IMG/VR virus record: IMGVR_UViG_3300036985_002432
Span: 28,213-92,212 of that record
Length of the DNA stretch: 64,000 bases
DNA from: a virus
Direction: 5' to 3' (one strand)
Shown: in pieces, positions 12,706 through 52,168 of the stretch
Layout of the letters: the number at the start of each line of letters is the position of its first letter
Position numbering within the stretch: the stretch's first letter is position 1
Translations under genes and position numbers: made by a program
The notes under the pieces: model-generated
What the model was told of the DNA's origin: nothing
Seen by the model: only the letters and a program-made list of their open reading frames with translations
The model's database searches: none

Positions 12706-12715
12706 AAATATAGTT

Positions 12716-15082: not shown

Positions 15083-15718
15083 ATGGCAACGTATTTACAG
15101 TCAAGTCCCGGAATATATAAAATCACTAGTATGACTAATGGTAAGATATATGTTGGTTGTGCTTCTAATGTAAGAACTAGAATAAATGGACATCTTTATG
15201 ATTTAAGAAGAGAAAAACATAAAAACAGTTATTTACAAAAAGCATGGCTTAAGTATGGTGAAGAGAGTTTTGTTTTTGAAATAATTGAAAAATGTGATAT
15301 AACTGATTTACATGTTAGAGAACACTATTGGGTTAATAAATTTAATTGTCTAGATAGATCTATTGGTTATAATCTAAAACCAACAGATCCTAATGGGTGT
15401 TCTATTCATTCTGAAGAAACAAAAGAAAAATTAAGACAAGCTAATAAAGGTAAAAAACCTTCAGCACTATGTATTCAAAAACTTAAAGAAAGAACTCTTT
15501 CTTCAGAACATAAAGAAATAATGAGAAAGTCAAGAGAAGGTATAGATTATACAAAATTACATAGAGAAAAAAGAGGAAAAAAGGTTATAGACCAATCAAC
15601 AGGAATTATATATACTTCATTAGCTGAAGTTTGTGAATTACTTGGAATAACTAAAGGTTCTTTTTCAAGAATACTATTAGGAAAAAGAAAAAATAAAACA
15701 ACTTTTAAATACTTATAA
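15083..15718 (+). mobile_element. Free-standing GIY-YIG homing endonuclease gene (NUMOD3-like and C-terminal NUMOD1/HTH-like DNA-binding domains)
   Basis: GIYKIT..IYVGCA..R...H motif, catalytic-type REHYW, HSEETKEKLRQANKGKK (NUMOD3-like), YTSLAEVCELLGI (HTH-like). Confidence 0.9.
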
Positions 15719-21700: not shown

Positions 21701-24560
21701 CTATGAAGCATTAAAAGATCAAGAGTTTGATAAAAAAGAAGATAATGATTTACTTAATGGTCTAGCTAGTAGAGGTTTATATATTAGTGTAGATGATTTT
21801 CAAATGTGGCAACAGTTTGGTATCACACCAGAAGAGATTTATAATGATGTAAATAAAACTGTTATTAAAAGATCACATCCAGATTATAATGAGATTATAG
21901 CACCATTTGTAAATATTGCACAAATGAGATCTAAAAAATCTAATACAACTGTTAATAGTGAAGGAGTACAAGCTGAGTTAGATAGACTTGAGCAAATGGA
22001 AGCTGCACGGATTAATGAACTAGAAACTTTTGAAGTAAAAACAGAAACAGGTACTTTAACAGATGTAACTATTAAAGAACTTAATGATAATTTAGAAGCA
22101 GGAGAATATGCTGATACAGAATATACATCAGAAGAAGATGTACCAGGTAATCTAACTTTATATAAAGACATAGATATACTTAAAGTAGAAAACATTGATG
22201 GTGCTCCAATTGATATTAAAAGCTTTAGAGCACTATATGGTATTAATAAATTTGATAAAGTAACAACTTATACATTATCAAATCAACCAAATGCTGATGA
22301 AGTTGAAATTATTAAAAATGAATTTAATAAGTTAAGACAAGATGTAATTAATAAAAGTATTCAAAAAGGTACTCAAGACATGGAACCAATACTTGAAAAA
22401 CCTATTGAACTTATTACTAATGAAACTCCATTGTCATCAATGCCTGTAGAGTTAAATAATAGTTTAGTAGCAGCTTTTGAAGATTTTGCTACATACAATG
22501 ATATTGATATTACAAATCAAGATGACTATGATGCAGCAATTGAATCTTATATAAGATCAAATTTTGAAGCAGCTTCCATTATTGAAGAGTATAATAAGAA
22601 TCAACAATTAGAAAAAGCTACTAAGTCTACAGATGAAGGTTATGAAATACCAAGATTAAATATTGGTAATGAACTTGTAAGTGCAGAAGACTTATCTGAA
22701 TCTGTTTTAAGAGGATACTTAAAAAATCATGAAGTAGGGTTAGCAGAACTTGAAGCTAAGCCAGATAAAACATCTGAGGATGATTTACAAATTAGTCAGT
22801 ATAAATTATTTATATCTAGATTAACTGATTACTTAGATAGAAGAGCTCAAGAAGGTTTTTCACCTGAACAAAAAGTTACTGTAGATGCAATACAAAAAAT
22901 AATTACAGAAAATGCTAAAATAAAACGTACTCCACTAGGATATGAATTAGATGGTGTTGTAATGGAAAGAGTTACTAATGTAATTAATCAATTTAAAGAA
23001 AAGTATCAGCATGTAAATACAGATGAGATAACTATAAGTTTTAAAACTACATTACAAAAAGAAGGACTTACAGCAGAATCAATAAAAGCTTTTATTGACA
23101 ATCTACGTGTACAAAAAGGATTAAGTGGATTTAGTGAATTTACATATACTGAAGTAGAAAAAGAATTAACAAGTATATTAAACAAAGGAGAAGAAATAAG
23201 TAATGAAGAATTACTAACTACAGTATTAGGACTTGTTGCTGAAAAAACTAATGAAGCCTCAAGAATTGCAGGTAACTATTTAGATGACCAGATAAGAAAT
23301 TTATTTGATAATAAAGCTACAGTATTTAATGAAGATAACATAAGTAAAGAAGCTTATGATAATCTATTTAATACAGATCCTGATAATCAAGGTTACTTAG
23401 TTGATATAAAAGAATTAATAGATAGTAAAGGATTACATATTATATCTAGAGGTTATGGTAATAATGGTGTTATCTTATATGATAAAGAAGCTAAAGTGGC
23501 AGGTGAGGTAGATTTACTTGCTGTAGATAGATCTGGTAAAGTATTTATTATTGATGTTAAAACCGGTAAAGCTAGTAAGTGGAATAACTTTAATAATGAA
23601 AATGCTAAGTTCCCACAAAAGCCTGGGTACACTTTACAGCAATTAGCATACTCTAACTTGTTATTTAATTTAAGTGGCCTTAAAGCTAACATAAGTATCT
23701 TACCTGTTGAGATTGATTACAACAAAGAAACTGGTAAAGTTACTGATGCAAATAAACCAAAGTCAAAAACTTTATTAGAACCAGGTTCATATAGAATTCC
23801 TTTATTCCCAACTCAAGAACAAATAGATCAAATTGATTCTGTTATACCTAAGAAAGCTGAAGCAAAAACTGAAGATGATGTACAAAGAGAAACTTCTGAA
23901 GAAGGAACATCTCCTGCAGTAACTGCTCAACAAGAAGGTGCTCCAAAAGAAACTGAAACTGGTGTTGAACCAGAATTAGCAAAAGCAATTAGTGTAGCTA
24001 GTGTAGAACAGTTAGCTGTATTTAAACTAGCCATTGCAAAAGCAATTGCAAAGAATGCATTTACTAGTGAAGCTGTTAAAGAACTTCAAGATTTACTTGA
24101 TATAAGAGAACAAGAATTAGCAGAAGGTGCTGTTACTAAATTAACTGAAAATAATATTGAAGTTGATACAAGACTTATTTCAAAAGAAGTTATCTTTACT
24201 GGTAAAACAAATACAAATTTATTTGCTAGTCAAGGTTCTGAAGTAAGAGTTGTCTCAATTAATCAAGATAAAGAAACAGTATTATTAAAAAGTATTGGAG
24301 CAGTAGTAAGACAGAAGACAATAAGTTTTGCAGAGTTAGATAAATTGTTTATATTAAAACAAACAGTTATGGAAGGTACAGAAACACCTATAGTTAAAAC
24401 TACAGAGAAAGAAAAAGAATTTATTGAAGAGTCTTCAGATAATGTTAAAAATCTTTTAGTAGATTCTGCAAGAAAAACTGAATTAAAGAATGAAATAAAA
24501 GGTATGTCAATAGAACAATTAGACACTGCCTTATTTGAAGATATAACATCAGACTGTTAA
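18759..24560 (+). CDS. Giant ejection-type virion protein with hydrophobic Gly/Ala-rich N-terminal segments and a PD-(D/E)XK nuclease domain
   Basis: 1933 aa; GEVDLLAVD..IIDVKTG..QQLAY (RecB-family motifs) at about 23500-23655; immediately upstream of the virion RNAP. Confidence 0.7.
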   Translation: MAESNTPFSSLDALGSGYGGIEAPNLDEKSLSPFEGERLSMPTPDFSKSQHFVPVVPGSDNLDNKQQPIHQVVGNPAQKPATSKRLSPKEFGKALAAKGDAVIQANQDKNEYSRIYSYDAGPGGNAFYDRYKAYGQETFDKIGFHPFRDNEAIFNAGTSGWQDTKRMMSHAFWPLFSRGFVSGPKSLAKMFQGDFSADTEDAEFYSRAAAIGNSTKGGVGGFLNNTAMSFGYTAGIITEAVLEEALAIGVTAVTGGGAAPAAFVATANVGKNLARGLRGLEYAADGMKAVNATIKGVESVGAARRFWNAARESTAITKTARFLNPLEHLTDAAVKIAKNENNLTGLARLTDAGRKTVGGFYGEVRGINMALSEARLEGGMKQNDVYNKLYDTYYAKHKEAPSDALQQDMMNTAKEAGISTLQWNTALIFMSNKIVLDNIVGVKGRGASFLAAKTKDVLNLEGGKIARTTVKQTLKSGKKILAPVLNWRKQTLVNTLKSFAKDPIRKSVTGGISYFKKNITEALQENAQDVIAQATESYYIDSFSNDKLATYDYAMGLTKSAIKGQFTGQGFETFASGFVMGMFAAPLNGVPHLLNIGYNKVKNPKEYAKYAAIRDTYGKNLVNELSNVDMADFWNANAIGLGMQAGAETVRLTGTEKQSRDAADASFNKAMIRAADNDMLFHYKETLESYKDLTAEEFEEAVPSIPAGEGAKYLEKLDTVISKIDRIEQKHEYYKKNFPNPINLSQLNKNSADYNDAVTTHHAWNVAVGNAVFLNGSFDNTMERMSSIVKDITSNGPLKKATFNDINVLFDNKKLINEVDMLETNIESLKTLPKTAENTSKIAIQTKKLETLKNYRDELNVYLQLDRNKKNIIDKFKKENPDASIEELEEEYDEVHSEQKDKLEAVYKDYLKVLAKESNDHIFNKDIDESFVKLIDFHSLENESQALVENINLLHNPKEFVEHVQRNKVWMKDLYDNRREYYEALKDQEFDKKEDNDLLNGLASRGLYISVDDFQMWQQFGITPEEIYNDVNKTVIKRSHPDYNEIIAPFVNIAQMRSKKSNTTVNSEGVQAELDRLEQMEAARINELETFEVKTETGTLTDVTIKELNDNLEAGEYADTEYTSEEDVPGNLTLYKDIDILKVENIDGAPIDIKSFRALYGINKFDKVTTYTLSNQPNADEVEIIKNEFNKLRQDVINKSIQKGTQDMEPILEKPIELITNETPLSSMPVELNNSLVAAFEDFATYNDIDITNQDDYDAAIESYIRSNFEAASIIEEYNKNQQLEKATKSTDEGYEIPRLNIGNELVSAEDLSESVLRGYLKNHEVGLAELEAKPDKTSEDDLQISQYKLFISRLTDYLDRRAQEGFSPEQKVTVDAIQKIITENAKIKRTPLGYELDGVVMERVTNVINQFKEKYQHVNTDEITISFKTTLQKEGLTAESIKAFIDNLRVQKGLSGFSEFTYTEVEKELTSILNKGEEISNEELLTTVLGLVAEKTNEASRIAGNYLDDQIRNLFDNKATVFNEDNISKEAYDNLFNTDPDNQGYLVDIKELIDSKGLHIISRGYGNNGVILYDKEAKVAGEVDLLAVDRSGKVFIIDVKTGKASKWNNFNNENAKFPQKPGYTLQQLAYSNLLFNLSGLKANISILPVEIDYNKETGKVTDANKPKSKTLLEPGSYRIPLFPTQEQIDQIDSVIPKKAEAKTEDDVQRETSEEGTSPAVTAQQEGAPKETETGVEPELAKAISVASVEQLAVFKLAIAKAIAKNAFTSEAVKELQDLLDIREQELAEGAVTKLTENNIEVDTRLISKEVIFTGKTNTNLFASQGSEVRVVSINQDKETVLLKSIGAVVRQKTISFAELDKLFILKQTVMEGTETPIVKTTEKEKEFIEESSDNVKNLLVDSARKTELKNEIKGMSIEQLDTALFEDITSDC

Positions 24561-24570
24561 TAAAAGAATT

Positions 24571-27500
24571 ATGATAAATTGTGCTCTTTCCACAGAAACT
24601 GTAGAGAAATTATATAAAAATATTTTTGGCCATATGCAAGATGCTGCATCAAAGGGTAATGCATTTGATGTAAATAAATATATTAAACATATTTTTAATG
24701 GTAAAGCTGATAAGTCTAGACCAGAAATAGCAGCAAAAATTGTTCAGCATATACCAAGAATGGTTATTGATATTACTAATACTGATTTCTTTGAAGTAGA
24801 AGACTTTGTTGACTTAAAAGTATTGCATAAATTAGGACAAGCATTTATGAATCCTAATAAAGGAATACAAAAAATTATATCTGATTATACTCCAACAACT
24901 GATAACAAAATACTTAAAAGTGTAGCTGAAACTAAACTAGAAGAAGCATTTAATATTGAAGAATTTGATGCTGAAGAAGGTGAGTTTAGTGAAAGATTTA
25001 AACCATATAGTTCTCTTACTAGTACATTTCAAGAATTTTTAGCAGTTGATCCTACTTCAAAAAATATTACAGATGTTGAGCAAATTGATGAATCTAAAAA
25101 AATAATATACACTACTCTTAGTGCTATTAAAGAAACAATGAATCCACAGCAAACTGTTGCTGATGATTTAATATATGAAGGAGTAAGTATTAAAGTTAAG
25201 GCTATTCCTTTATCTTCTATACCACAAGCAGAACTAGATGACTATACTAGAAATTTAGTTGTAAAATCAAAATCAATAAAAAAACAAGGTACCAATCTTG
25301 AGGGTGTAACTCCAACAGATAACATGGTTGCTTTAGTTATTTCAAATGCAAATGGAGAATCTTTATATTTTGATTCTGAAGGGCACATAAGTTCAAAAGA
25401 AGAAGGTGGAAAACTAGTGTATCAGTTTTTAAGAGATGCTAGAAAAAAAGGAAATGCATATACAGTAACAGATATATATGGTAAAGAAGATCAAATTCTT
25501 GATCCATATGAGATTGCTGTTAATACATATGACAAAGCTATAGATGGTACTTTTACTAACTATTATAACTCAATAAAAGTATCACAACAAGAAGACTTTA
25601 AAAAAATATATGAATTTAAAGAGTCTGTATTAAAAGATAAGAAAGGTGTACTAATACCACTTTTAGGAATCAGTGATGGTTTACCTGAATCAATAACTGG
25701 TAGTAAGTTGATGTTAAATAAAATTACTTCACTATCCGGAGTTAACCGTAGTACATTTAAATCTATAAAAACTATTCAACAGAGTAGAGGTATTTTTAAG
25801 AAAGGTTATGCAAGCATAATATTAAATGGTAATGAATTTATTGTTGATAGAGCTGATGTACCTAGTGAAATTGCATTACAAGTATCACAAGTATTGACTA
25901 GTAAAGATTTTACTTTCTCAGAAAGAATGGATTTTTACAAACAATTTTTTAGCAATGACTTACAGGCAACTACAAGAAGACATGAGACTGCAGGTAAAAT
26001 AGAGAATAAAGAATTTTGGTTTAACTATTCTGATGAAACATCACAAGAACAAAAGCAAAGAAACTTTCTTGAAAACTCAATTAACTTATCACAAGAATCT
26101 GTAAACAATAAAACTGTAGATGAGTTAGCAGCAGATGCCGCAGCAATCTATGATGTATTAATGTCAGGTAAAGGTGCTAAAAAAAGATACCCGGCTAAGA
26201 TGAATTTTAATTCAGACTTACTTAAGGATGAGCGTTATATGACATATAATGTTGATACTAATAGTATTGAGTTTAAAGATTACATTGATTTTATTAAAGA
26301 TTTAAAAACAGAAATAAGTATTAATAGTGGAGATCCTGGTGTATTTAATACATATATGGAGTTTGCTTTACCTTCTAAATTTCTTAGTACAGTTGATAAA
26401 GTTAAAGAAGAATTAAAAGAAGATACAAGTTCTGATACAAAAAAAGTAAAAGATAGTATAGTAGAAGTATTAAAAGAATCTGGAGGAGTAATTGATGCTG
26501 ATGTAGCTTCTGTTAAAAAAGGTTTTTATAAAGTACACTATGCAAACTTTAAAGTTAATGTACCGGGTGTTACTGAAGAAGCTAAAGTTTATTTTCATAA
26601 TAAAACTGCATTGATTTCAGTTGGTGGTAAAACTTATCAAGATCCTACATGGCCAAAAGAAGGTAACTTAGTAAGATTAGTATTAAAGCCAGAGTTAACT
26701 ATACCGTCCGGAGAAATAATTACAAATGTAATTGAAGTATTTGCAGTTAATGAAGACGGGACACAAGGAGCTTATCTTGGTTCTGTTGCAGAAACTGAAT
26801 ACAATACAAAGAATGAAACTCCAAAGTTAGAAGATGAAGTTGAAGAACAAGAAGTTATTGCATCAGAGGAAAAAGAAACAATACCTGAACTTGAAGATGC
26901 AGTTATCTTAACTAGTCCAATTAAACCTACTAGTAAAACATCAAGAGCTGCTTCATTACTTAATCAAAATATTGCTGGATTAGATAGATCAACAAAATTA
27001 AGTGGAGATGTAACTGTTGAAGATGTAGAAAACGCTAATAACTGGTGGAATAGTTCACCTTTAAATAAATATATTACACTTGATCATGCAGCTAATTTAG
27101 TTAACTCAGATGCATTTGCAAGATTTACAGTAGCTGGAGCAACTCTAATAGATTCAAATATACTAGGTAATATATCTATTTATCAAAAAGGTAGTATGGT
27201 TGATGTATACCATGAGGCATGGCATGGATTTTCTCAATTATATCTTACTCAAAAAGAAAAGCTTAAATTATATAATGATATAAGAGAATATAAAGATAAG
27301 TCAGGTAATACACCTTATGCAAATAAATCATTCTTTGAAGTTGAAGAAATGATTGCTGAAGACTTTAGAACTTATGCAAAAGATCCAAAAACATTTAAAG
27401 CAAAAGTACCTGTTCAAAAAACTATATTTCAAAAGATACTAGATTTTTTATATAAACTATTTGGAGGTAAGATTAATACAAAAGATGTTGTAGTAGGTAA

Positions 27501-30500: not shown

Positions 30501-33500
30501 CAAAAGAAATACTGGAGCACAATCTGGTGGTAGAAAAATCTTAACTGATGAATGGGCTCAAAATTTTGTTAATGATGTTTTAAATAAAAAAAGTTATGGT
30601 GTAAAATTAGCTAAAACTCTTGGAGAAGATTATAATCAATTCTTTTATGATGGTACATTTAATACAGCTATACTTAAGGATGTAGAGAGACCTTCTATTT
30701 ATTTAGATGATATAGAAGCTGGATTAAGAAAAGACTATGCATTAAGTTTAAAGGGTTCAGGTAAATCTAAAGAAGAGATACAAGAAATTATAGATAACAA
30801 TATTAAAAAAGACCGTAAAGCTTATGAAGAAATGAATGAGGCTGACGGTGCAGGATATATTACTATTGATGCTTATAGAACTCTTAAAACATTAGAAAAT
30901 AATTGGTCTCATAAACAAGAAGCTTTATATCAAGATGAAATAAATGGAAGAGAGATAACTTCATCACAAATAGAAGAATTTTTCCCGGTGTATAAACTAC
31001 AGAATTATGGAGAATTAGCAAATAAAACACTTGCTCCTGTAACAGCAATGCATAAATTTGCACTTTCACCACTTATCCCATCTGAAGTTAAAGGTTCTGA
31101 ATTAGAACATTTGCATAAAGAGATGATGAGAAACAATATTCAGTATGCAACATTTGAATCTGGATCTAAAGTAGGAAATATTACATCTAATGGTGAACCT
31201 GATCAAATATTTACTGATGATACTCAAACTAAACTAAAAGATAAATTAACTCTTACAAAGAATACTATATATTTAGAATATCTTAAAAATGTTACAGAAG
31301 TAAATAATAAATTTAAAGGTAAAATTACTTTCCCAACTCAATTAAGAGGTTTAATACTTGATGGTTTATATGAACAAGGAGCACTTGCTTATGATAAACA
31401 TGCTGCATTAGCTAAAACATATCATGATGACGTTGCTAATTACACTGAATTATTAAAGATTGAATTACTTGATGAGATTCAATGGGAAGAAAAGAATGGA
31501 AAATATACAGGAGAATTTACTAAGTTATTATCTCTAGTACAAAAAGAATTATCAAAAAGAGATATGCCAGAACATCTAGTTAAGATGATTGGTGTTAATG
31601 ATGATGGTAGTCTTAAAACAGATTTATCTTTACATCTTGAAGCTGATACAATTGAAAAAATATTATTATCAGTAATTAATAAAAGATTAATTAAACAAAA
31701 AGTTAAAGGTGAAGCTTTTGTACAAGTTCCATCAAGTATGTATAATGGCTTATGGGATACTAAAGCAAATCTTAAAACTGCTACAGAAGCAGAAAAAAAG
31801 AAATATTTAGGTTCAAACAACTTACCATTTTATAGACCCGGAGAAAATGGAAATACAGATGCAATGAAAATTGCTATTGCTTTCCAAGGAGACTTCATTA
31901 ATTTATTAAATGTTAAATTTAATGAAGAACAAATTGGTACTCTAGAAAGATTAAATGAAGCTATTAAAGATGATAACTGGTTAAACACTGGAGACAATAG
32001 AAAATTAATTACATTATCAGGAGCACGTATTCCAATTCAAAACTTAAACTCATTAGAATTTGCTGAGGTATATCATTTCATGAATCCTTCAGCAGGTAAT
32101 AAGATTGTTGTACCATCAGAAATTGTTGCTAAATCAGGATCTGACTTTGACGTTGATAAGCTTTATTTCATGATGCCGCACATTGATGGTAGAGGAAATT
32201 ATGTTAAATCAAGTAAGACTAATACAGAATTATCAAAGGAACTTGCTTCTTTAAAAGGGAAACTGGTTACTGATAAGACTGCGCCAAATGCAAAGGGACT
32301 TATAGGTAAGCAAAAAGCTGCATTAGAAAACAAAATTATTGAGACAACTGCAGAGTTACTTGCAATACCAGAAAACTATGCATCATTAGTAAGACCAAAT
32401 GATACATATTTATTAAAACTTATTGCTGATGACATTCAAAAATATGTTACAGAATATAATAGATACAATGTAGCACATGGTGAAACAGAAAGAGTTAATG
32501 CAAAAGATGATACTAAAAGAGCAATATCTCCTAGTACAACATTAGAGATTGGATATAATCTTGATAAGCATGATAAAAATATGACAGCAAAAGCTGCATT
32601 AGGTATTGATGCTCAGGATAATAAACAACACCCAATATGGAACTCTGTTGGTGCTAAAATGCCAGCTACATATAAAGAATCAGACTTTGATGATGTAACT
32701 AATACAGCAGTAGAAGGTGAAGATGATTATGATGTACGTTTACTTGTAAGACATAACACATTGATAAACAAGAAAGGCCAAAAGGTTATTTCTTTATCAC
32801 ATAGATATGACCAGGATAATGTACGTATTGCTGATACAAGATCACATAAAATGAATGGTCAACTTGATGCTGAGGCAGACCCATGGGTAGCTGATGTTCA
32901 AGCAGATCTTGAGACTACACCTGTATTAAATTATTTAATGAACGCAGGAGTACCATCAAAAGATGCTATATATTTTGTTGCTAATCCACTAGTAAGAGAG
33001 TATGGCCTTCAACAAAAATTATTAAAAAGTACATTCTCTACTATTATTAATAAAGCAGTTACAGAAGAAAATTTTGTTCAGTATAAAGCTGCAGATGCAG
33101 TAGTTACTAAGTTTATACCTTTTGGGATACAAGCACAAATACTTTCACAAATAGCAAATATTAAAATTGATAAGTTTTTAAATAAACTTAAAAACAATGA
33201 TACAGTATATGTAAATACAAGTTTTAAACAACCAAATTGGAAAGAAATAAGTGTTAAAGAATTAAAAGCATTACTTAATACAGATAGTAAACTATATGAT
33301 AAAATTGCTGGATTAATTAACAAGTCAACTCATTCAGTTTATAAAGCTTCAAGATCATTAATAACTAATGGTAACTACTATTATGCAGCTAAAATTGCAT
33401 CTGAAATGGCTGGTATTAAACCAGGTCAATCATTTAGTACAGAAGACATGATATCTATTGTTGAGAAAGGTGCTATTAAAGAAAATCAAATGAAATCAAT

Positions 33501-36500
33501 TGCAATGTTCTTGCATTTTATTGAGATTCAAAAATACATTAAAGGTATTGGTGCAGTTATGCGTCAAGCAAATCCGGATACTAAAATATCTAAGACTGTA
33601 CAACAAATAAAAAAGAGAGATGCAAACTATGAGATTGCATTAGCATCATCAAAGTCTGATGAAGATCTATTAAAAGATTTAAAAGAAAAATCTATCTTAA
33701 GTTCATTCTATCTTAATGATTTATCAATTGATATTATTGAACCATTATTTCCATTAAGATTAAATAAAGATATCTCACAATACATTAGTGATAGATTAAC
33801 TTTAAGCAAATCTACAATAGCAAAGAAATTTGGTAAAGGTGCAGATGGACAAGAAAAGTTTAGTAGTCAGTTTAATAATGGAGTTATACAGTATATTTTT
33901 CAAAATTACATGTCAAACTTTATTAATGCTAATGGAGATGTAGTTACTATACCTGATACCTACAGAAGTATGAAAGTTGTTAAAAGTAAAAATTTAACAA
34001 GAGGTATTGAAATAGTTAATGGTCAGATACTTATAGATGAAAAAACATTAGAAAAAGACTTTAAAGATAAACTATATATAAAAGAAGTAGAGGATACAAA
34101 TAATTATGCAGCAAGAGGTTTACAACCTTTTACAATAGCAGATGATCCATTTCCATCACAGTCTTCTTATAATAGATATGTATTTGAAAGAGAGTTTTTA
34201 AGAACTAAATATCCAGAAGTAACAGAATTTTACTTAAATCAAAGAGCATTAACAAATGTATTTAATGCTAAAGCAATTATGGGTACAAATGAGTACTCAT
34301 ATACTGATCAAGTAATGAGTATTATTAATTCATTTCCTAAATTAAAAGATAAATTTCCTGTGCTAGCTCAAATAGCACCTGCACCATATAAAAATAAAGT
34401 TGGAGAAAATATTAAAGTACTTCAACTTAATGATAAGAAGATGGCAGTTGGTGAATTGGCAGAAATATATAATCAAAATCTTAAACAACTTGCTGATGTA
34501 AATATTAGAAAAGTAAAAGATATAGTTGAGAATCAAAAAATTAGTGATGTATTTAAAGTATTCTCATTAATGATGATACATCAACATGGTGTTGGATTTA
34601 GTAAGTATGGTTTCCCTAAAATATTAGATGAAGCTATATATGTAGATGTAATGAGAAATGCTTCAACTAATTTTATGGCAAATCACATTAATGCACCTAC
34701 TCTAAATACTATATTTAATAAAGTTGTTAGTACTGATCAATTTCAAAACTATGTTGCTGCTCCTGCAGATTATAATAATCCAACAGCCGGAGTATATAGT
34801 AATGACATTACTACAGAAGTAAGAAATGAATTAAATAAATATAAAGATAATAATGAAGTTGGAAAAGTAACTGAATTATTTGCATCATTAGAAGATATAC
34901 ATATATTACGTATACCAAAAGATGCAACTAATGGGTTGTATTTAGACAATGCTTATAATGTATATGCACCATTGAGTCCAGGTAACTTTAAAGAAGCAAT
35001 TACTATGCTTGAAAGTATGGGAACTGATATAGATGCAATGCCAGATCTATTCTATGATTTTGCAAATGATATAGAAGTTAGTATATCTGATTTTTATGAT
35101 ATGATTAAACCTCAATTAGAAGGTGATCCTATTATTGAAGAAGTAGAAATAGGTATGACTACTGGTGTACCATTAGGTCTTAAACTTTCAATAGATAAGA
35201 AAGGTAAAGATCAAGGTAAAGCTGATTTAGTTAATGCTGTAATTTCATATCCAAATCCAAACACATCTAGTTATCAATATCTAGTAGATGCTATGAACCA
35301 AAAAGTTCCGGTAAATGAACAAATTGTAAATGGTCCAGATGTAATAGCTATGGTATCTGTAAATGGTAATGGTAAAGCAACAGAAGATCAAATTGAATAT
35401 ACTATATCACATGCACAAGAAATCTTGGATGCAGGTGGTACTATTATAATGGATTCAACTTTTGATGCTACTAGACCATGGAATAAAACAGGTGAAGCAT
35501 TAGTACAAGAAGGTATTGGAAACCCAACAGGTCAAACATCTTTAGGATATAACTATTGGGGACCTAATCCAGAACCTACTACTCAACCATCTGCTAGTGT
35601 TAAACCTACTGTTAAGGATCTTTCCAGATGGGCTGATATAAAAGATGCTACAACACCTTATACAGATAAAGGTATTGTTGTAACAAGAGTCGGTACTACA
35701 GATAACCAATTTGGAAATCCTTTTATAGGTTCAAAACGTAGAGATAAGCAAGGTAATCTTGTAGAGTCTAAAGTAGATAACATTACTGTATTTAATACTA
35801 TTGATGAAGCTGACCAAGCATATAGAGATTGGTTAGAAGGTACTAAGCATCAGAATATTGAGCCATTAAGAAGAAAATGGATATTAAAACAAATTGCTGA
35901 TGGTAAGCTTGATGGTAAAACATTATTGTACTATAAACCTATGGAGGTTACAAACAATGATGGAACTATTGTAAAAGGTGGTTATCACTCTCATGCTGAT
36001 ACACTTGCTGAAATAGTAGAGGAATTAAGATCTACTCAATCATCTACTAGTGTTAAAGAAGGAGTATCAGAACTATTTGAATCTACTCCTGAATTAGCTA
36101 ATGCTGTATATGAAGCTTTAGGTATATATAATGTATGGCACGCATCTGATAAAAAAATAGATAAATTTATTTCTGAAAATGTAGAAGGCTATTTTGCTAA
36201 TGTCAAAAAAGGATCTCCAAAAGCTGTATTCTTTACAGCTGATAAGGCTCCTCAAGAATCCTTTTTATCTAAAAGAGAATATCAAGAACAATTTGCAGTT
36301 AAAATGGATAACCCTTTAGTTGTTGATACTAAAACTGGTTATTCTAGAGATACTGAAAGTTTTAAAGAATTAGTAGATAGAGCTTTATTAAATAATTATG
36401 ATGGTGTAATTGTTAAAAATGTTGATGATAATGGATTTGTTGGAGATGTTTATATTTCTCTTAACGCAGAGAAAATTAGTAAAATAACCCCACAACAAAA

Positions 36501-36771
36501 ACAACAAGCTCAACAACAATATTCAAATTATCTTGAACAAAACCCCAATGGTAATATAGAAGGATTTAAAAAATTTGTTACTCAATCATCTACTAGTGTT
36601 GAAATAGAACCTACACAAACTGTTATATCTAATTTTTATTCTAACTTAACAGAAAAAGAAAAAGAAAAATTAGGTAACTTAGATGAATTAATTGATGATT
36701 ATGTACAAATGTATGAAGGTACTATGTCTGAAGAACAATATATTGAAAACGTATTAAAATGTAATTTATAA
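24571..36771 (+). CDS. Virion-packaged DNA-dependent RNA polymerase (crAss-like, double-psi beta-barrel) fused to zincin and C-terminal accessory domains
   Basis: 4066 aa; GSDFDVDKL catalytic DxDxD at 32143-32157 preceded by RIPIQ, plus DGAGYIT and FESGSKVG motifs, as in the phi14:2 gp66 type (DFDID); HEAWH zincin at 27211-27225. Confidence 0.9.
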   Translation: MINCALSTETVEKLYKNIFGHMQDAASKGNAFDVNKYIKHIFNGKADKSRPEIAAKIVQHIPRMVIDITNTDFFEVEDFVDLKVLHKLGQAFMNPNKGIQKIISDYTPTTDNKILKSVAETKLEEAFNIEEFDAEEGEFSERFKPYSSLTSTFQEFLAVDPTSKNITDVEQIDESKKIIYTTLSAIKETMNPQQTVADDLIYEGVSIKVKAIPLSSIPQAELDDYTRNLVVKSKSIKKQGTNLEGVTPTDNMVALVISNANGESLYFDSEGHISSKEEGGKLVYQFLRDARKKGNAYTVTDIYGKEDQILDPYEIAVNTYDKAIDGTFTNYYNSIKVSQQEDFKKIYEFKESVLKDKKGVLIPLLGISDGLPESITGSKLMLNKITSLSGVNRSTFKSIKTIQQSRGIFKKGYASIILNGNEFIVDRADVPSEIALQVSQVLTSKDFTFSERMDFYKQFFSNDLQATTRRHETAGKIENKEFWFNYSDETSQEQKQRNFLENSINLSQESVNNKTVDELAADAAAIYDVLMSGKGAKKRYPAKMNFNSDLLKDERYMTYNVDTNSIEFKDYIDFIKDLKTEISINSGDPGVFNTYMEFALPSKFLSTVDKVKEELKEDTSSDTKKVKDSIVEVLKESGGVIDADVASVKKGFYKVHYANFKVNVPGVTEEAKVYFHNKTALISVGGKTYQDPTWPKEGNLVRLVLKPELTIPSGEIITNVIEVFAVNEDGTQGAYLGSVAETEYNTKNETPKLEDEVEEQEVIASEEKETIPELEDAVILTSPIKPTSKTSRAASLLNQNIAGLDRSTKLSGDVTVEDVENANNWWNSSPLNKYITLDHAANLVNSDAFARFTVAGATLIDSNILGNISIYQKGSMVDVYHEAWHGFSQLYLTQKEKLKLYNDIREYKDKSGNTPYANKSFFEVEEMIAEDFRTYAKDPKTFKAKVPVQKTIFQKILDFLYKLFGGKINTKDVVVGNYPVSVTEMFDALYLASKDPSLLNKYSPSIDNVMWDLLNRGVEKVNDRDIDVLTKQEANLISNSIDSILSDYVDANHDARVSNGKEVTKSGTLVLLSEEKDADGITNRSKAYGYVKAVLEDKLDELNDELGTITDKSFSEIKTIEDLEGESIAVIRSKSGEDKYIFLNSQVENFNNLTPDIKQGERVKGEKYKGSIEIISDFYKHNNIIINDKNVSIIVVNDVRDAKAQFDNYVKGGAKDFVSIEIKEDGPVYTDLTSDQEDLLDNIRILQNTINNWGDEKSGVMKYHADNSRFDLIREKYIDVNYGDEELDEDGNIIDETDVTDGKDSAGIVDKAVGKKSAEQFAGKETLYIVKSLFKITNGKTVDNKLGFKELVDFNKIWGILLREVGGVKNREVAFNKLKEASVTYAPELKQLVEKKLPDPTKIKHTSEFNVSAAFWQDLSLSDIPYTQLTAFPVKEMLINEDTGYPESTITGFTMEVTDASIEPSNVIRGFQATFKTIQPEDNPYITKVDNITMLTKLNALVKNYEDKHNPGSLNIKGSLGFARSIGVYLDNLDEIKNELETNSEYYGLQYIYQIVKDLADIQAKPFGASADAQKVLRDFVIDPLAVLKSKIPKGVIKSLKGVEVYQKNILDRLAGLQAQFGLETKGKGVFNAAGDMVFPFVQDFSVSRKIDALNSVENLTDCWIKDEFKYMRYLNPTISSFTNYSQILKSVFNYETGKIDEGQKDRRNERSLDLSMVSGTQVAEFNEGTNTSDLDKSSKFLQEMHTMLKGGLQEFIRAAGKKTSIGVRVKGGLIKDKGKDSNLYVDVDMFDSEQTGDIYAANKILMPYIASEFERIQKFKNNREEFKKYTGYNRKVGGTKENPIYAGEVFTAFDKVLKEKTKELLLSEATVKGVNETPGGLTIYLRKNTELRQKIESDILEYFNEQTSSNLTNLVNNKYIDKSLIEKTNSPNLTEQEQEYMLVKAFTYNSWIHNFETVNLFIGEMSQFNHDKENLHKRNTGAQSGGRKILTDEWAQNFVNDVLNKKSYGVKLAKTLGEDYNQFFYDGTFNTAILKDVERPSIYLDDIEAGLRKDYALSLKGSGKSKEEIQEIIDNNIKKDRKAYEEMNEADGAGYITIDAYRTLKTLENNWSHKQEALYQDEINGREITSSQIEEFFPVYKLQNYGELANKTLAPVTAMHKFALSPLIPSEVKGSELEHLHKEMMRNNIQYATFESGSKVGNITSNGEPDQIFTDDTQTKLKDKLTLTKNTIYLEYLKNVTEVNNKFKGKITFPTQLRGLILDGLYEQGALAYDKHAALAKTYHDDVANYTELLKIELLDEIQWEEKNGKYTGEFTKLLSLVQKELSKRDMPEHLVKMIGVNDDGSLKTDLSLHLEADTIEKILLSVINKRLIKQKVKGEAFVQVPSSMYNGLWDTKANLKTATEAEKKKYLGSNNLPFYRPGENGNTDAMKIAIAFQGDFINLLNVKFNEEQIGTLERLNEAIKDDNWLNTGDNRKLITLSGARIPIQNLNSLEFAEVYHFMNPSAGNKIVVPSEIVAKSGSDFDVDKLYFMMPHIDGRGNYVKSSKTNTELSKELASLKGKLVTDKTAPNAKGLIGKQKAALENKIIETTAELLAIPENYASLVRPNDTYLLKLIADDIQKYVTEYNRYNVAHGETERVNAKDDTKRAISPSTTLEIGYNLDKHDKNMTAKAALGIDAQDNKQHPIWNSVGAKMPATYKESDFDDVTNTAVEGEDDYDVRLLVRHNTLINKKGQKVISLSHRYDQDNVRIADTRSHKMNGQLDAEADPWVADVQADLETTPVLNYLMNAGVPSKDAIYFVANPLVREYGLQQKLLKSTFSTIINKAVTEENFVQYKAADAVVTKFIPFGIQAQILSQIANIKIDKFLNKLKNNDTVYVNTSFKQPNWKEISVKELKALLNTDSKLYDKIAGLINKSTHSVYKASRSLITNGNYYYAAKIASEMAGIKPGQSFSTEDMISIVEKGAIKENQMKSIAMFLHFIEIQKYIKGIGAVMRQANPDTKISKTVQQIKKRDANYEIALASSKSDEDLLKDLKEKSILSSFYLNDLSIDIIEPLFPLRLNKDISQYISDRLTLSKSTIAKKFGKGADGQEKFSSQFNNGVIQYIFQNYMSNFINANGDVVTIPDTYRSMKVVKSKNLTRGIEIVNGQILIDEKTLEKDFKDKLYIKEVEDTNNYAARGLQPFTIADDPFPSQSSYNRYVFEREFLRTKYPEVTEFYLNQRALTNVFNAKAIMGTNEYSYTDQVMSIINSFPKLKDKFPVLAQIAPAPYKNKVGENIKVLQLNDKKMAVGELAEIYNQNLKQLADVNIRKVKDIVENQKISDVFKVFSLMMIHQHGVGFSKYGFPKILDEAIYVDVMRNASTNFMANHINAPTLNTIFNKVVSTDQFQNYVAAPADYNNPTAGVYSNDITTEVRNELNKYKDNNEVGKVTELFASLEDIHILRIPKDATNGLYLDNAYNVYAPLSPGNFKEAITMLESMGTDIDAMPDLFYDFANDIEVSISDFYDMIKPQLEGDPIIEEVEIGMTTGVPLGLKLSIDKKGKDQGKADLVNAVISYPNPNTSSYQYLVDAMNQKVPVNEQIVNGPDVIAMVSVNGNGKATEDQIEYTISHAQEILDAGGTIIMDSTFDATRPWNKTGEALVQEGIGNPTGQTSLGYNYWGPNPEPTTQPSASVKPTVKDLSRWADIKDATTPYTDKGIVVTRVGTTDNQFGNPFIGSKRRDKQGNLVESKVDNITVFNTIDEADQAYRDWLEGTKHQNIEPLRRKWILKQIADGKLDGKTLLYYKPMEVTNNDGTIVKGGYHSHADTLAEIVEELRSTQSSTSVKEGVSELFESTPELANAVYEALGIYNVWHASDKKIDKFISENVEGYFANVKKGSPKAVFFTADKAPQESFLSKREYQEQFAVKMDNPLVVDTKTGYSRDTESFKELVDRALLNNYDGVIVKNVDDNGFVGDVYISLNAEKISKITPQQKQQAQQQYSNYLEQNPNGNIEGFKKFVTQSSTSVEIEPTQTVISNFYSNLTEKEKEKLGNLDELIDDYVQMYEGTMSEEQYIENVLKCNL
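35580..36600 (+). repeat. Three dispersed copies of a 22-25 bp repeat encoding TQ(P/S)S(A/T)SV linkers
   Basis: TACTCAACCATCTGCTAGTGTTAAA at 35580-35604; TACTCAATCATCTACTAGTGTT identical at 36033-36054 and 36579-36600. Confidence 0.9.
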
Positions 36772-39700
36772 TGGCACGTTGTATAATAACTAGCTCACCA
36801 CAATTTAAATCACTTGAAAAAGTGTATGGAACTAAACTTGCTCAAAGTTTCATTATCAATTACTCAATTGATGTAATGAAAGTAGCAGCAGATGAAGACT
36901 ATTATTATCCTTCTAAAATAGAAATAAGAGATTGGTTGACTGCTACAAGAAGTAAAATTATTAATAATGTTACAACAGCTTTAAGAGTAAATCCATATTT
37001 AAATGAGCATGCTATTAAGTCTTTATTAAAAGGTGTTATACATCAACTTGACGGTAAACAATATATAACAAGAGGTACTTCTAACTATGGTTCTACAGTT
37101 GAAACTGCAGCAGCATACAACTTAATATTTAAACCTAATTTAGATTTACTTACAGGGTTAGCAAAAAGATTTCCAAATATTTTTGAGATCACAGATAGAA
37201 CAGATAACTTATATACTAAAGAAGTTATAATTAATCCTATTAATGATAGAGATGAAGCATATGCAGTAGAAGATAGAGCATCAACTATTGAAAGTTTTAT
37301 GAATTCATATCCTGAAGCTAGAAAAACATTAGAGAATGAAAGAATACTTGAGGTTGCAGATAAGTTAGCTCAAAAATTACAACAAGCAACTGGTGTACCA
37401 TATGAATTTATTAAACCAGAAGATGCATATGAAATTTTATTAGATACTAAAACACCATATGATAGTCAAGCTGCATTTTATTTTAATAATAAAATATATT
37501 TTGTTGGAGATTATTTAACTCCGGATAGTGTACTACATGAATATGGACATCCATTAATAAAAACATTATCTATATCTAATAGACCTTTATTTGATAATTT
37601 ATACAGACAATTAGAAGCAGATACAACTGGAGCAGCTATTATTGCTGAAGTAAAAGCAAAGTACCCTGAACTATTTAATGCAGAGAATGATTCAGAAAAT
37701 GATAGATTTAAAGAAGAATGTTTAGTAACTGCACTTGCAAGAGATGCAGAATCTAAAGTTGATAAATTGATTGAAACTGAATCAGGTTTTAGAAAGTTTA
37801 TGACAAATCTTATATATGCTATTAAACAAGTTTTAAAATCTATTGTAAAAAAAGTTAACTTAAAAACTTTATCCTCATCAACTACATTAAAACAACTATC
37901 TGATATGATAGTAAGTGAAGACTTTGTTGTAGATAAAATTGTATTTGATGAATCTGATTTTGCTGAATTTAAAAAAGAAATAGATACTATAAATCAACAG
38001 TTTAGTAAAGTTACCCCGGAAACATTAACTAAAACAGTTAATGACTTCTATAATAGAATACTAGTAATAGCTGAAGCTGTAAAAAAATCTCCTAATGTTC
38101 TTAAACAAGAATTAAAAGGTAAAGATGGTACTAAGATATTTAATTATATTAAAGGGTATATGCGCAGAACTGGTGCAGTTACAGCTAATATAAATAATAT
38201 TGAAGTTGAAGATGTAATAAATGCATCAGTAGACATGAACCTTAAATTTAGAAATCAATCACTAGCACTATATAATTCTATAAATGAAATAAATATGTTT
38301 ACAGAAAATGTAGACAATATATTAGACTCATTTAATAATTTAGAAAACTATACAGCAAATGATGTAATACCAAAAATTAATTACTACTCAAATATTTTAT
38401 CTGCTAATAGTGATCTTGTTCAAAGTATAAAGAAAACAATAGGATTAAGTAAAAATAATGAGTTTATTAAAATTTTAAATGGTATCAGCCATACTATAGG
38501 AGAATCACAAGATAAAATTAAAGCTCTTCAAAAAAGATTTATAGTTGAGTTTTATGGTGAAGAAACTGAAGGTATGAATCAAAGTGTAGAAGAAAGATTT
38601 AAAGCTAATGTAACTCAGTTTCTTAAAACAGAACAAATTGATGATGCCACTATTGAAGCATTTATAAATAAAATTATAACTAATCCTGATGGTTTAGTAT
38701 TTTCAATTGAAGAAGTAGGTGTACCTGTATCTAAAGGCGTAGGTAGAGAGATAGTAGACTCAGTAAGAGAATATTATTTAAAAAGATTAGGTGAAAGTAA
38801 TTTAACTTCATACCTATCTGGTGAAAAGAAAGATGTAAATTACTTTGGCTCTATGTTTGCACCATATATGTATATGAATGACCCTATTATTGCAGGTGGA
38901 GCTAGAAGTTTAAACAATGCATTAGCCGGTGTACAAAGAGCTAATCTTAAACAAAAAGATCAAAATGCTAATATATTAGTACCAAAATTAAAAGCAGTTA
39001 ACTATACAGGTAATAATGTATCTGCAGTTGCTAATAAAATATTATTTACAGATAAAATTGGATACAAGAATTCTAAGACTGGTGAGTTTGAAGAAAAAGA
39101 AGTACTTGCATGGCATCAGTTACATAAGAACTATAGATATGATAGAAATAAACTTCAGTTTGAATATGAACAAGCTTTAGAAAAAAATGATCCTATAGCT
39201 ATTAAGGAAGCATTTCAAGCAGCTGAAAAGTTCCAAGAAGATTACATGTATAGAGAATTTAAAAAAGAAGTCTATGATGTAAAAAAAATGTGGACACAGT
39301 CAAATGAAGTAATACATCCTGAAACAAAACAAGCATTTATTGTTGATGCAGAAACTTCTTTTGAAGCACAAAGAGAAATGCAAGCACAAAGAGAAAATCT
39401 TAATGCTTTAAGTGCAAGTGATACAGATGAGTTAGCTGACATGCAAAAAATGACTCAGTATACTATTGCTAACATGGAATATAAAAAATTATATGATGTT
39501 AGAAATCCTGATGGTACATTAAAAACTGGTAAAGAACTTGAAAAAGTATTAGTAAGAAAAAAATATAGAACAGAGTCTGGTAAATTTTATGAGTCATTTG
39601 TTGACCAAGATAGAATACAAAAAGATTTTGATAACTATATATCTAGACTTGCTTCAGTAGGTATTACTTTAGAAGATACACCTGATGAATTTGATGAAGA

Positions 39701-52165: not shown

Positions 52166-52168
52166 ATA

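What the first reader, a model, noticed from the sequence alone, without database searches (positions are those of the whole stretch)
24555..36782. Terminal cysteines face each other across three nearly cysteine-free giant proteins: possible head-to-tail covalent ejection chain
Seen (counted by eye): the 1933-aa protein has one Cys, its last residue (..DITSDC*, 24555-24557). The 4066-aa RNAP has Cys4 (MINC, 24580-24582), a Cys three residues from the end (..LKCNL*, 36760-36762) and one internal Cys. The 2022-aa protein has Cys4 (MARC, 36780-36782) and one internal Cys. The outer ends of the trio have none. So 4 of about 6 cysteines in ~8000 residues sit at the two gene junctions. Known: injected proteins such as N4 virion RNAP avoid cysteine. 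Inference: C-terminal Cys of protein n bonds to Cys4 of protein n+1 (disulfide or shared metal), making one ~8000-residue string that is threaded through the tail in gene order and released in the reducing cytoplasm.
Basis: partly seen in the sequence, partly recalled or inferred. Interest (0 to 1): 0.9.

Follow-up and report, generated by a model that had tools for sequence, protein, structure and literature searches.

The report
Terminal cysteines chain crAss cargo proteins
Three giant proteins of this crAss-like phage, with its particle-borne RNA polymerase in the middle, are almost free of cysteine except at the ends that face the next protein; every relative I could check keeps this rule, which points to untested end-to-end disulfide links joining them into one chain of about 8,000 residues.

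Summary
The three proteins hold 6 cysteines in 8,021 residues, against about 136 expected from the rest of the genome. Four of the six sit at the two junction-facing ends.

The rule is order-wide:
- 50 of 50 distinct relatives of protein B have a Cys (nearly always their only one) 0-5 residues from the C-end.
- 49 of 49 B/C junctions and 54 of 54 C/D junctions on viral contigs carry a facing pair.
- The cultured phages crAss001 (gp47/gp50/gp49), phi14:2 and DAC15 obey it, although in crAss001 and DAC15 the first gene lies on the opposite strand.
- Natural fusions (p-crAssphage and crAss002 C+D; Fpv1 apparently B+C) lack cysteine at the fused joint and keep the other pair.

A solved precedent has the same signature: cyanophage A4 gp27 Cys1715 bonded to gp26 Cys5. 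A complex prediction places B's tail on C's N-terminal domain (0.81 against 0.00 for controls), with both cysteines in the interface.

No bond has been shown in any crass-like phage, and threading order and reductive release are inference.

Verdict: real and conserved, most likely head-to-tail disulfide tethers; a new variant of a known kind. This scan has reported the same rule on many other crAss-like genomes.

The parts
18759..24560 (+). Protein B, 1933 aa, gp47-like cargo protein; its only Cys is the last residue
   Evidence: BLASTP to crAss001 gp47 1e-14; 37/37 database relatives have exactly one Cys, 0-3 residues from the end
23205..23663 (+). PD-(D/E)XK nuclease-like domain of B (residues 1483-1635; invariant D1585, D1599, K1601)
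   Evidence: Pfam PF12705 E 2.7e-4, just under its cut-off; invariant columns in alignments A3/A4
24390..24557 (+). C-terminal segment of B (residues 1878-1933) predicted to dock on C; conserved tail L-F-E-D-x-T-S-D-C
   Evidence: interface residues; tail conservation
24555..24557 (+). Codon of B Cys1933 (TGT), followed by TAA TAA
   Evidence: invariant column C1933
24571..36771 (+). Protein C, 4066 aa, virion RNA polymerase (gp50-like)
   Evidence: DFDVD at residue 2525; BLASTP to crAss001 gp50 2e-13; Cys at both ends
24571..24870 (+). N-terminal helical docking domain of C (residues 1-100); head motif M-I-N-C-A-L-S..E-K-L-Y
   Evidence: AF2 model has helices 8-27, 34-48, 51-72, 82-106; interface residues 1-21, 41-72, 93-100
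24580..24582 (+). Codon of C Cys4
   Evidence: one of only two invariant columns among 26 N-terminal sequences with 17% mean identity
29557..29559 (+). Codon of C Cys1663, an internal lineage-specific Cys
   Evidence: aligned residue in 42 full-length relatives is L (30), M, A, F, T or P, never C
32143..32157 (+). DFDVD catalytic motif of the RNAP (residues 2525-2529)
   Evidence: the motif is defined for crAss-like RNAPs in bioRxiv 10.1101/2020.03.07.982082
36760..36762 (+). Codon of C Cys4064, two residues from the end (..L-K-C-N-L)
   Evidence: 37 of 42 full-length relatives have Cys at both ends, 33 of them with exactly two Cys
36771..42839 (+). Protein D, 2022 aa, gp49-like cargo protein with zincin HExxH and LysM; start overlaps C's stop (TAATG)
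   Evidence: BLASTP to crAss001 gp49 3e-3; 36/39 relatives have Cys at residue 3-5
36780..36782 (+). Codon of D Cys4 (M-A-R-C)
   Evidence: invariant column C4 in alignment A5 and in 30/30 aligned heads
37536..37550 (+). HExxH zincin motif of D (H256, E257, H260)
   Evidence: nearly invariant columns in A5; a zincin domain is described for the phi14:2 orthologue in bioRxiv 10.1101/2020.03.07.982082
37719..37721 (+). Codon of D Cys317, internal, in a column that alternates C/V/A
41895..42011 (+). LysM peptidoglycan-binding domain of D (residues 1709-1747)
   Evidence: Pfam PF01476 E 1e-8

Best explanation
B, C and D are the RNA-polymerase cargo block of a crAss-like phage: a gp47-like protein, the virion RNAP, and a gp49-like zincin/LysM protein. 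In cultured relatives these proteins are packed in the capsid and are thought to be ejected into the host. All three are purged of cysteine, as ejected phage proteins often are. The exception is one Cys at each end that faces the next protein. Most likely B's C-terminal helical segment docks on C's N-terminal helical domain and C's tail docks on D's head. Once the particle is outside the reducing cytoplasm, the facing cysteines would oxidise to interchain disulfides: B Cys1933 with C Cys4, and C Cys4064 with D Cys4. That gives one linear B-C-D concatenate of 8,021 residues. Each link lies within about 8 residues of a chain end, so the joint is hardly thicker than a single chain and has no long side branch. 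The absence of other cysteines excludes wrong pairings. The inferred function is to keep the three proteins together in 1:1:1 ratio, also while they are unfolded during extrusion when non-covalent contacts are lost, and to let them part in the reducing cytoplasm. What is shown: the pattern, its order-wide conservation, its loss at fused joints, and a solved precedent in another phage. What is supported by prediction only: B-C docking. What is inferred: the bond in crass-like virions, threading, and reductive release.
For: Pattern and depletion.
Family tallies from protein databases: B 37/37 with a sole Cys 0-3 residues from the end; D 36/39 with Cys at 3-5 (two of the three exceptions are N-truncated gene calls); C 37/42 full-length with Cys at both ends, 33 of them with exactly two Cys.
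Same-contig junctions in IMG/VR: C/D 54/54 distinct. B/C: 50/50 tails, and 49/49 heads where downstream sequence exists.
Whole triads on contigs G002-G004 and G006-G008.
Cultured phages: crAss001 gp47 (Cys 2 from the end), gp50 (Cys5 and Cys 8 from the end), gp49 (Cys5). phi14:2 gp078/gp077/gp076 carry exactly 1, 2 and 1 Cys, all terminal. DAC15 obeys too.
The constraint acts on the protein, not the DNA: the B-type gene is on the opposite strand in crAss001 and DAC15; TGT and TGC are both used; stop-to-start spacing runs from -10 to +32 nt, and is +647 nt in one locus with an inserted gene.
Fusions: p-crAssphage gp44 and crAss002 gp33 are C+D fusions by BLASTP. They keep the N-terminal Cys3, have no C-end Cys, and have no Cys across the joint region. 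Fpv1 gp33 (4401 aa, RNAP part offset by about 1,740 residues) has a single Cys, 1 residue from its end, and its neighbour gp34 has Cys3. Only head-to-tail pairing fits both kinds of fusion.
Precedent: cryo-EM of cyanophage A4 shows a disulfide between gp27 Cys1715 and gp26 Cys5 (PMC12002296). In the A-4L record gp27 (1717 aa) and gp26 (1114 aa) each have that single Cys.
The crAss001 virion contains intersubunit disulfides, and gp47, gp49 and gp50 are virion cargo by mass spectrometry (PMC10172136).
Complex prediction of B 1794-1933 with C 1-420: score 0.81, best of 3 controls 0.00. That mark was reached by 58 of 80 solved complexes and 2 of 110 mismatched pairs; the counts hold only roughly because my own alignments were used. 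The runs agree in at least 77% of contacts and the partner's pLDDT is at least 80. The interface includes C 1-17 and B 1924-1933, so both cysteines. No like complex was detectable by sequence profile in the PDB.
Against: No disulfide between these proteins has been observed in any crass-like virion; the crAss001 reconstruction did not resolve the RNAP cargo. The hosts are anaerobes and particles assemble in a reducing cytoplasm, so oxidation must happen later and is assumed. The complex prediction is a model's confidence, and the Cys4-Cys1933 pair is not among the 25 lowest-error contacts listed. In A4 the disulfide sits in a folded, fivefold pre-ejectosome ring, not in an unfolded thread. I did not confirm by homology that the N-terminal part of Fpv1 gp33 is B-like; I inferred it only from size and the offset of the RNAP part.
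Confidence: 0.6

Rival explanations
1. The same B-C and C-D disulfides form, but they staple a folded, stoichiometric cargo complex inside the capsid, a pre-ejectosome-like core as in phage A4. The purpose would be stable co-packaging. The proteins would not travel as one unfolded thread, and the bonds would imply no ejection order.
For: In A4 the gp27-gp26 disulfide lies in a folded pentameric ring above the portal. The predicted B-C interface is extensive: about 120 confident contacts over some 55 residues of B and some 100 of C, which suggests a folded docking module. The crAss001 capsid has a large cargo zone near the portal.
Against: A folded complex does not need its cysteines within 0-8 residues of the chain ends in every lineage, nor the removal of every other cysteine. 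Bayfield et al. argue that cargo must at least partly unfold to pass the tail, and a covalent end-to-end link is what would survive that.
Confidence: 0.2
2. The facing cysteines do not form a disulfide. Together they bind a metal ion (Zn, Fe or Cu) at the docking interface, or form another thiol-based link.
For: Two thiols brought together at an interface can bridge a metal. An anaerobic host environment disfavours oxidation. The pattern alone cannot tell a disulfide from a metal bridge.
Against: Only one Cys per end is conserved, with no conserved His or Cys neighbours: tails read T-S-D-C, K-C-N-L, P-F-K-C and heads I-T-C-A-L-S, C-P-N, C-I-x. A structural metal site usually needs three or four ligands. 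The only solved case is a disulfide. crAss001 virions do contain disulfides.
Confidence: 0.07
3. Each terminal Cys bonds to something other than its neighbour in the trio: another virion protein such as a portal, ring or capsid-lining protein, a second copy of the same protein, or C's own other end.
For: Other virion-module proteins of this genome also end in a Cys, for example a 288-aa protein whose sole Cys is its last residue. Several copies of each cargo protein per virion are suggested for crAss001.
Against: Fusions remove exactly the two cysteines that face each other and leave the other pair untouched. Pairings such as C(N-end) with C(C-end), or B with D, would leave orphan cysteines in both fusion types. 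The predicted B tail-C head docking puts both cysteines in one interface. The counts are always 1-2-1, never an odd extra terminal Cys at the outer ends.
Confidence: 0.08
4. The terminal cysteines are chemical or processing sites rather than tethers: an N-terminal nucleophile exposed by cleavage, a lipidation site, or a cleavage mark left from a polyprotein ancestor.
For: M-x-x-C heads resemble, on the surface, enzymes with an N-terminal Cys nucleophile. Drobysheva et al. suggest that fused polyproteins are cleaved.
Against: Cys at residues 3-7 leaves no room for a lipoprotein signal peptide. B has only a C-terminal Cys and D only an N-terminal one, and the two vanish together on fusion, which a catalytic residue would not do. 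The head domains of C and D are unrelated folds with no match to known enzymes.
Confidence: 0.03
5. The pattern comes from chance, base composition, or a nucleotide signal at gene junctions such as translational coupling.
For: The genome is 29.6% G+C, and the genes abut or overlap.
Against: The chance probability is about 2e-10 in this window alone. The pattern is invariant across more than 100 distinct junctions at 25-45% identity. It holds where the genes are on opposite strands or separated by an inserted gene. Both Cys codons are used and the spacing varies.
Confidence: 0.01

Closest known systems
Cyanopodophage A4 (Anabaena phage A-4L) pre-ejectosome proteins gp27 and gp26, joined by a Cys1715-Cys5 disulfide (PNAS 2025, PMC12002296)
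   Same: Two consecutive, large ejection proteins, each with a single cysteine. The upstream one has it 2 residues from its C-end and the next has it at residue 5 (M-S-K-H-C), checked in KF356198. The C-terminal helix of one protein inserts into the N-terminal region of the next, and cryo-EM shows the two cysteines disulfide-bonded.
   Different: A4 has one pair, not a three-protein chain, and no RNA polymerase is involved. It belongs to a different phage family (Saffermanviridae). I found no detectable sequence or fold relation to the crass proteins. The paper reports the bond as a structural detail of a folded fivefold ring, not as a general rule or a thread.
RNA-polymerase cargo block of cultured Crassvirales: crAss001 gp47, gp50, gp49 (PMC10172136) and phi14:2 GenBank gp078, gp077, gp076 (gp077, 2180 aa, corresponds by my own reading to the paper's RNAP gp66; bioRxiv 10.1101/2020.03.07.982082)
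   Same: Orthologous proteins by BLASTP with the DFDxD RNAP motif. The same 1-2-1 terminal cysteine pattern is present. They are virion cargo by mass spectrometry.
   Different: The window's proteins are much larger (C is 4066 aa, against 2412 and 2180) and too far diverged for tblastn with the N-terminal 800 residues of C to find any phage record. The word 'cysteine' does not occur in the main text of either paper, so the rule is undescribed there.
Cysteine-suppressed ejection operon of Schitoviridae: N4 gp50 vRNAP, gp51, gp52; DEV gp71-gp73 (PMC11445570)
   Same: A giant virion RNAP and its companion ejection proteins are purged of cysteine, which the authors explain by passage through the envelope. 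N4 vRNAP has 0 Cys in 3,500 residues.
   Different: In Schitoviridae the suppression is total, with no terminal cysteines and so no covalent chain. The crass proteins keep exactly the junction-facing ones.

Membership tests
Crassvirales RNAP cargo block (gp47/gp50/gp49 type) | Giant protein with the DFDxD two-barrel RNAP catalytic motif | tested here: met
   DFDVD at residue 2525 of C; BLASTP of C against crAss001 gp50, 2e-13, across the motif region
Crassvirales RNAP cargo block (gp47/gp50/gp49 type) | Flanking partner proteins homologous to gp47 and gp49, the latter with a zincin motif | tested here: met
   B against gp47 1e-14; D against gp49 only 3e-3; D has a nearly invariant HExxH and LysM
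Crassvirales RNAP cargo block (gp47/gp50/gp49 type) | Proteins are present in the virion and delivered to the host | not testable with these tools
   Known only from mass spectrometry of crAss001 and phi14:2 virions; the window is an uncultured IMG/VR contig
Disulfide-tethered ejection proteins (A4 gp27-gp26 type) | A sole or near-sole Cys within a few residues of the C-end of one protein and of the N-end of the next | tested here: met
Disulfide-tethered ejection proteins (A4 gp27-gp26 type) | The C-terminal segment of one protein docks on the N-terminal domain of the next | tested here: inconclusive
   Prediction only, for B/C: score 0.81 against best control 0.00; a mark reached by 58 of 80 solved complexes and 2 of 110 mismatched pairs; at least 77% contact agreement between runs; partner pLDDT at least 80. 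C/D was not modelled
Disulfide-tethered ejection proteins (A4 gp27-gp26 type) | An interchain disulfide observed in the particle | not testable with these tools
   Needs non-reducing gels, disulfide mass spectrometry or cryo-EM of a cultured crassvirus
Disulfide-tethered ejection proteins (A4 gp27-gp26 type) | Sequence or fold homology to A4 gp27/gp26 | tested here: not met
   Profiles of C's N-terminal part and of B find no PDB chain. Foldseek of the C 1-600 model finds nothing at E <= 0.001. So this is an analogue, not a shown homologue
Cysteine-suppressed ejected proteins (Schitoviridae type) | Cys frequency far below that of the phage's other proteins | tested here: met
   0.075% against 1.69%; the upstream cargo-block proteins of 1012 and 767-773 aa have 0 Cys
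Bacterial lipoproteins (lipobox Cys) | A signal peptide with a hydrophobic core ahead of the Cys | tested here: not met
   The Cys sits at residues 3-7, directly after the start Met, in all heads

The most novel reading that the evidence does not exclude
The crassvirus RNA polymerase and its two partners leave the capsid as one covalently concatenated, unfolded thread of about 8,000 residues. The order of the thread, set by which ends carry cysteine, would programme the sequence of events at the cell envelope and in the cytoplasm. Reduction of the two disulfides in the host cytoplasm would be the switch that frees and activates the polymerase.
Probability: 0.3. Interest if true: 0.85.

Novelty: new variant of a known kind. 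Interest (0 to 1): 0.75.

Why it matters
Crassvirales are the most abundant phages of the human gut, and how they deliver their megadalton protein cargo, including the polymerase that starts infection, is an open question (PMC10172136). A conserved pair of end-to-end tethers would give that question a concrete, cheap test: gels with and without reductant, disulfide mass spectrometry, and four Cys-to-Ser changes in phages that are already cultured. It would also explain why these genes fuse and split so freely in evolution, because a disulfide could replace a peptide bond. It would extend a single structural observation in a cyanophage into a general principle for ejected phage proteins. It also offers a practical annotation rule: a Cys-free giant protein with Cys only at an end marks a cargo-chain member and shows where its true start codon lies.

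Tried and rejected
1. Megablast of the region and tblastn of C's first 800 residues against 50,697 phage records found nothing. Pfam and PDB sequence searches of C also found nothing useful. Orthology had to be shown by local BLASTP against crAss001 and by the DFDxD motif.
2. Single-sequence and small-alignment scans of viral contigs gave only 3-4 relatives. Larger alignments (A4, A5) were needed.
3. A search for fused forms among longer proteins found none. It is uninformative, because a C+D fusion in this lineage would exceed the 5,000-residue limit.
4. Four loci (L063, L066, L077, L097) at first looked like C+D fusions free of cysteine. For three of them (L066, L077, L097) I fetched upstream DNA, which showed D proteins with a long N-terminal extension, each with a Cys5 head next to a C tail with Cys 2 from the end. 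L063 stops at its contig end and stays unresolved. I dropped all four as fusion evidence.
5. Two apparent exceptions at C/D (L051, L087) and eleven at B/C came from frameshifted contigs, short flanks or upstream Met calls. The true junctions, wherever the sequence reaches, carry the pair. L177 has no downstream sequence.
6. Foldseek of the C 1-600 model against the PDB found no match, so no structural link to A4 gp26 could be made.
I left that protein out and sent the job once more.
9. I considered and rejected a lipobox, an N-terminal nucleophile, a polyprotein cleavage mark, and a nucleotide-level junction signal (see the rival explanations).


Full report
WHAT IS THERE

The window is part of a 92-kb uncultured viral contig from IMG/VR, estimated 77% complete. 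Its G+C content is 29.6%. One strand carries replication genes: a DNA polymerase, a primase and a DnaB-like helicase. The other strand carries a run of giant genes.

The finding concerns three of those genes:
- B, 18759-24560, 1933 aa.
- C, 24571-36771, 4066 aa.
- D, 36771-42839, 2022 aa.

C carries the DFDxD motif that defines crAss-like virion RNA polymerases: DFDVD at residue 2525 (the motif is described in bioRxiv 10.1101/2020.03.07.982082). C also matches crAss001 gp50 at 2e-13. B matches gp47 at 1e-14, through a PD-(D/E)XK-like domain with invariant D1585, D1599 and K1601. D matches gp49 weakly, at 3e-3. D also has a nearly invariant HExxH at residues 256-260 and a LysM domain. So the trio is the RNAP cargo block of Crassvirales. 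In crAss001 its proteins are virion cargo by mass spectrometry (PMC10172136).

THE OBSERVATION

- B has one Cys, its last residue.
- C has Cys4, Cys1663 and Cys4064, the last being two residues from the end.
- D has Cys4 and Cys317.
- The outer ends of the trio have none.

Six cysteines in 8,021 residues is 0.075%. The other 53 ORFs of this genome hold 1.69%, which predicts about 136. The chance of the four terminal placements is about 2e-10. Neither internal cysteine is conserved. D317 lies in a column that alternates C/V/A inside a conserved DRFKEE-x-LV helix. C1663 lies where 42 relatives have L, M, A, F, T or P.

CONSERVATION

In protein databases:
- All 37 relatives of B, down to 28% identity, have exactly one Cys, 0-3 residues from the C-end. 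That is 37 Cys in 74,297 residues.
- 36 of 39 relatives of D have Cys at residue 3-5, and for 25 of them it is the only Cys. Two of the three exceptions are N-truncated gene calls. The third is a different, Cys-rich protein.
- 37 of 42 full-length relatives of C (3,300-4,900 aa) have Cys at both ends, 33 of them with exactly two Cys. Four of the five exceptions lack the usual N-terminal head or start inside the N-terminal domain, so they look like truncated gene calls. The fifth (P0100) keeps Cys5 but has no C-terminal Cys.
- C4 of C is one of only two invariant columns among 26 N-terminal sequences with 17% mean identity.

On viral contigs, where both sides of a junction can be read:
- 54 of 54 distinct C/D junctions carry the pair. 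Two apparent exceptions are frameshifted contigs whose true junction has it.
- 50 of 50 distinct B tails carry the Cys.
- All 49 B/C junctions with downstream sequence are followed by a C head of the form M-x(1-4)-C.
- Whole triads on six further contigs obey the rule.

CULTURED PHAGES AND THE NUCLEOTIDE-LEVEL ALTERNATIVE

- crAss001: gp47 has one Cys, 2 residues from the end. gp50 has Cys5, Cys1334 and a Cys 8 residues from the end. gp49 has only Cys5.
- phi14:2: gp078, gp077 (the RNAP) and gp076 carry 1, 2 and 1 cysteines, all terminal.
- DAC15 is the same.

In crAss001 and DAC15 the gp47-type gene lies on the opposite strand from the other two. In one relative a GIY-YIG-like gene sits between C and D. 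Both Cys codons occur, and stop-to-start spacing varies from -10 to +32 nt. The constraint therefore acts on the proteins, not on the gene junctions.

FUSIONS

- p-crAssphage gp44 and crAss002 gp33 are C+D fusions by BLASTP: the RNAP part comes first and the gp49-like part last. They keep the N-terminal Cys3 (in crAss002 this requires a start at Met33, M-S-C). They have no C-terminal Cys, and no Cys anywhere near the joint. Their upstream partners end with a Cys 1 residue from the end.
- Flavobacterium phage Fpv1 gp33 (4401 aa) has its RNAP part offset by about 1,740 residues, which is the size of a B protein. Its single Cys is 1 residue from the end. Its neighbour gp34 has Cys3. I did not show homology of its N-terminal part to B.

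Only the pairing B(C-end) with C(N-end), and C(C-end) with D(N-end), leaves no orphan cysteine in both fusion types.

PRECEDENT AND WHAT IS PUBLISHED

Following a lead from earlier notes of this scan, I read PMC12002296. [quoted passage not shown] In the A-4L record, gp27 (1717 aa) and gp26 (1114 aa) each have exactly that one Cys. That is the same signature as here.

Cysteine suppression in ejected proteins is published for Schitoviridae (PMC11445570), and N4 vRNAP indeed has none. The crAss001 virion contains intersubunit disulfides. The main texts of the crAss001 atlas, the phi14:2 RNAP preprint and the 2026 N4 paper do not contain the word cysteine. Three library searches found no paper describing the crass rule.

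DOCKING

A complex prediction of B 1794-1933 with C 1-420, using my own alignments, scored 0.81 against 0.00 for the best of three controls.
- That mark was reached by 58 of 80 solved complexes and by 2 of 110 mismatched pairs. These counts hold only roughly with user alignments.
- The runs agree in at least 77% of contacts, and the partner's pLDDT is at least 80.
- The interface covers C 1-21, 41-72 and 93-100, and B 1878-1933, so it includes both cysteines.
- The Cys-Cys pair itself is not among the 25 listed lowest-error contacts.

The AF2 model of C 1-600 (pLDDT 79.5) has a helical N-domain with a disordered tip at residues 1-4. Neither profiles nor Foldseek link these modules to any solved structure, A4 included. 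The prediction is therefore not an obvious recall of a solved complex, and the crass proteins are analogues of the A4 pair, not shown homologues.

INTERPRETATION

The best reading, at about 0.6, is that the facing cysteines form interchain disulfides that join B, C and D head to tail.

The extreme terminal position (N-end 3-7, C-end 0-8 residues) and the purge of all other cysteines fit a link that must stay slim and unambiguous. Such a link would survive the partial unfolding that cargo is thought to undergo in the tail, when non-covalent docking would be lost.

Threading as one chain and release by cytoplasmic reduction are inference. A folded, stapled cargo complex as in A4 is the main functional rival. 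Metal bridging, other partners and processing roles are less likely, and chance or nucleotide signals are excluded.

The chain here stops at three proteins. The upstream cargo-block proteins of 1012 aa and 767-773 aa have no cysteine at all.

This scan has reported the same rule on many other crAss-like genomes. My tallies are independent of those notes.

Noticed in passing
window 15083-15718 (+) and 15721-15735: A free-standing GIY-YIG/NUMOD homing-endonuclease gene (Pfam PF01541, E 2.3e-8) sits between the 773-aa gene and gene A. Its first five codons (M-A-T-Y-L) repeat the first five codons of gene A just downstream. Relatives G003 and G004 have the two flanking genes adjacent with no such insert.
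   Followed up: partly
window 51425-52171 (-) and 52212-53408 (-): A second GIY-YIG/NUMOD1 gene ends with the same eight residues (G-K-V-I-K-L-E-L) as the gene just upstream of it, which matches an HNH-endonuclease PHROG. This is another end duplication next to a homing endonuclease.
   Followed up: no
G000:C1:13545-15243, upstream of the window in the same genome: Three consecutive small ORFs in the virion module: 288 aa whose sole Cys is its last residue, 143 aa ending in Cys, and 129 aa starting M-A-K-K-L-G-C. They may be further end-to-end disulfide partners, perhaps like the ring and tail-hub disulfides seen in crAss001.
   Followed up: no
window 12698-15019, 15721-18759 and 8236-12705 (+): The cargo-block proteins upstream of B are also purged of cysteine: 0 Cys in 773 aa, 0 in 1012 aa, and only Cys650 and Cys657 in 1489 aa. 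They have no terminal Cys, so they are not part of the chain in this genome.
   Followed up: partly
window 3-4604 (+): The first ORF of the window is cut by the window edge. In the genome it is a 1746-aa protein starting 636 nt upstream. It matches virion structural protein PHROGs and has a normal cysteine content of 1.2%.
   Followed up: partly
L048:1184-1816: In one relative a 211-aa GIY-YIG-like ORF is inserted between the RNAP gene and the D gene. The C-tail Cys (1 residue from the end) and the D-head Cys3 are both kept.
   Followed up: partly
L051:1835-2170, L087:1549-1574, L118:9153-9317: Three viral contigs have frameshifts inside the D or C genes that split them into two frames with no cysteine pair at the break. 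These are probably assembly errors rather than true gene splits.
   Followed up: partly
L010:15088-15186 (crAss002 gp33): The annotated start of crAss002 gp33 is probably 32 codons too far upstream. Met33 gives the head M-S-C, as in p-crAssphage gp44. The terminal-Cys rule may help to place start codons.
   Followed up: partly
L007:26978-27256 and 27976-28245 (p-crAssphage gp39, gp37): p-crAssphage is annotated with a thioredoxin and a truncated thioredoxin close to the RNAP block. A phage-encoded reductant would be of interest if the cargo is disulfide-linked. I did not search this window systematically for a thioredoxin: Pfam scans of 13 of its ORFs and PHROG scans of 15 reported none, and most small ORFs were not scanned.
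   Followed up: no
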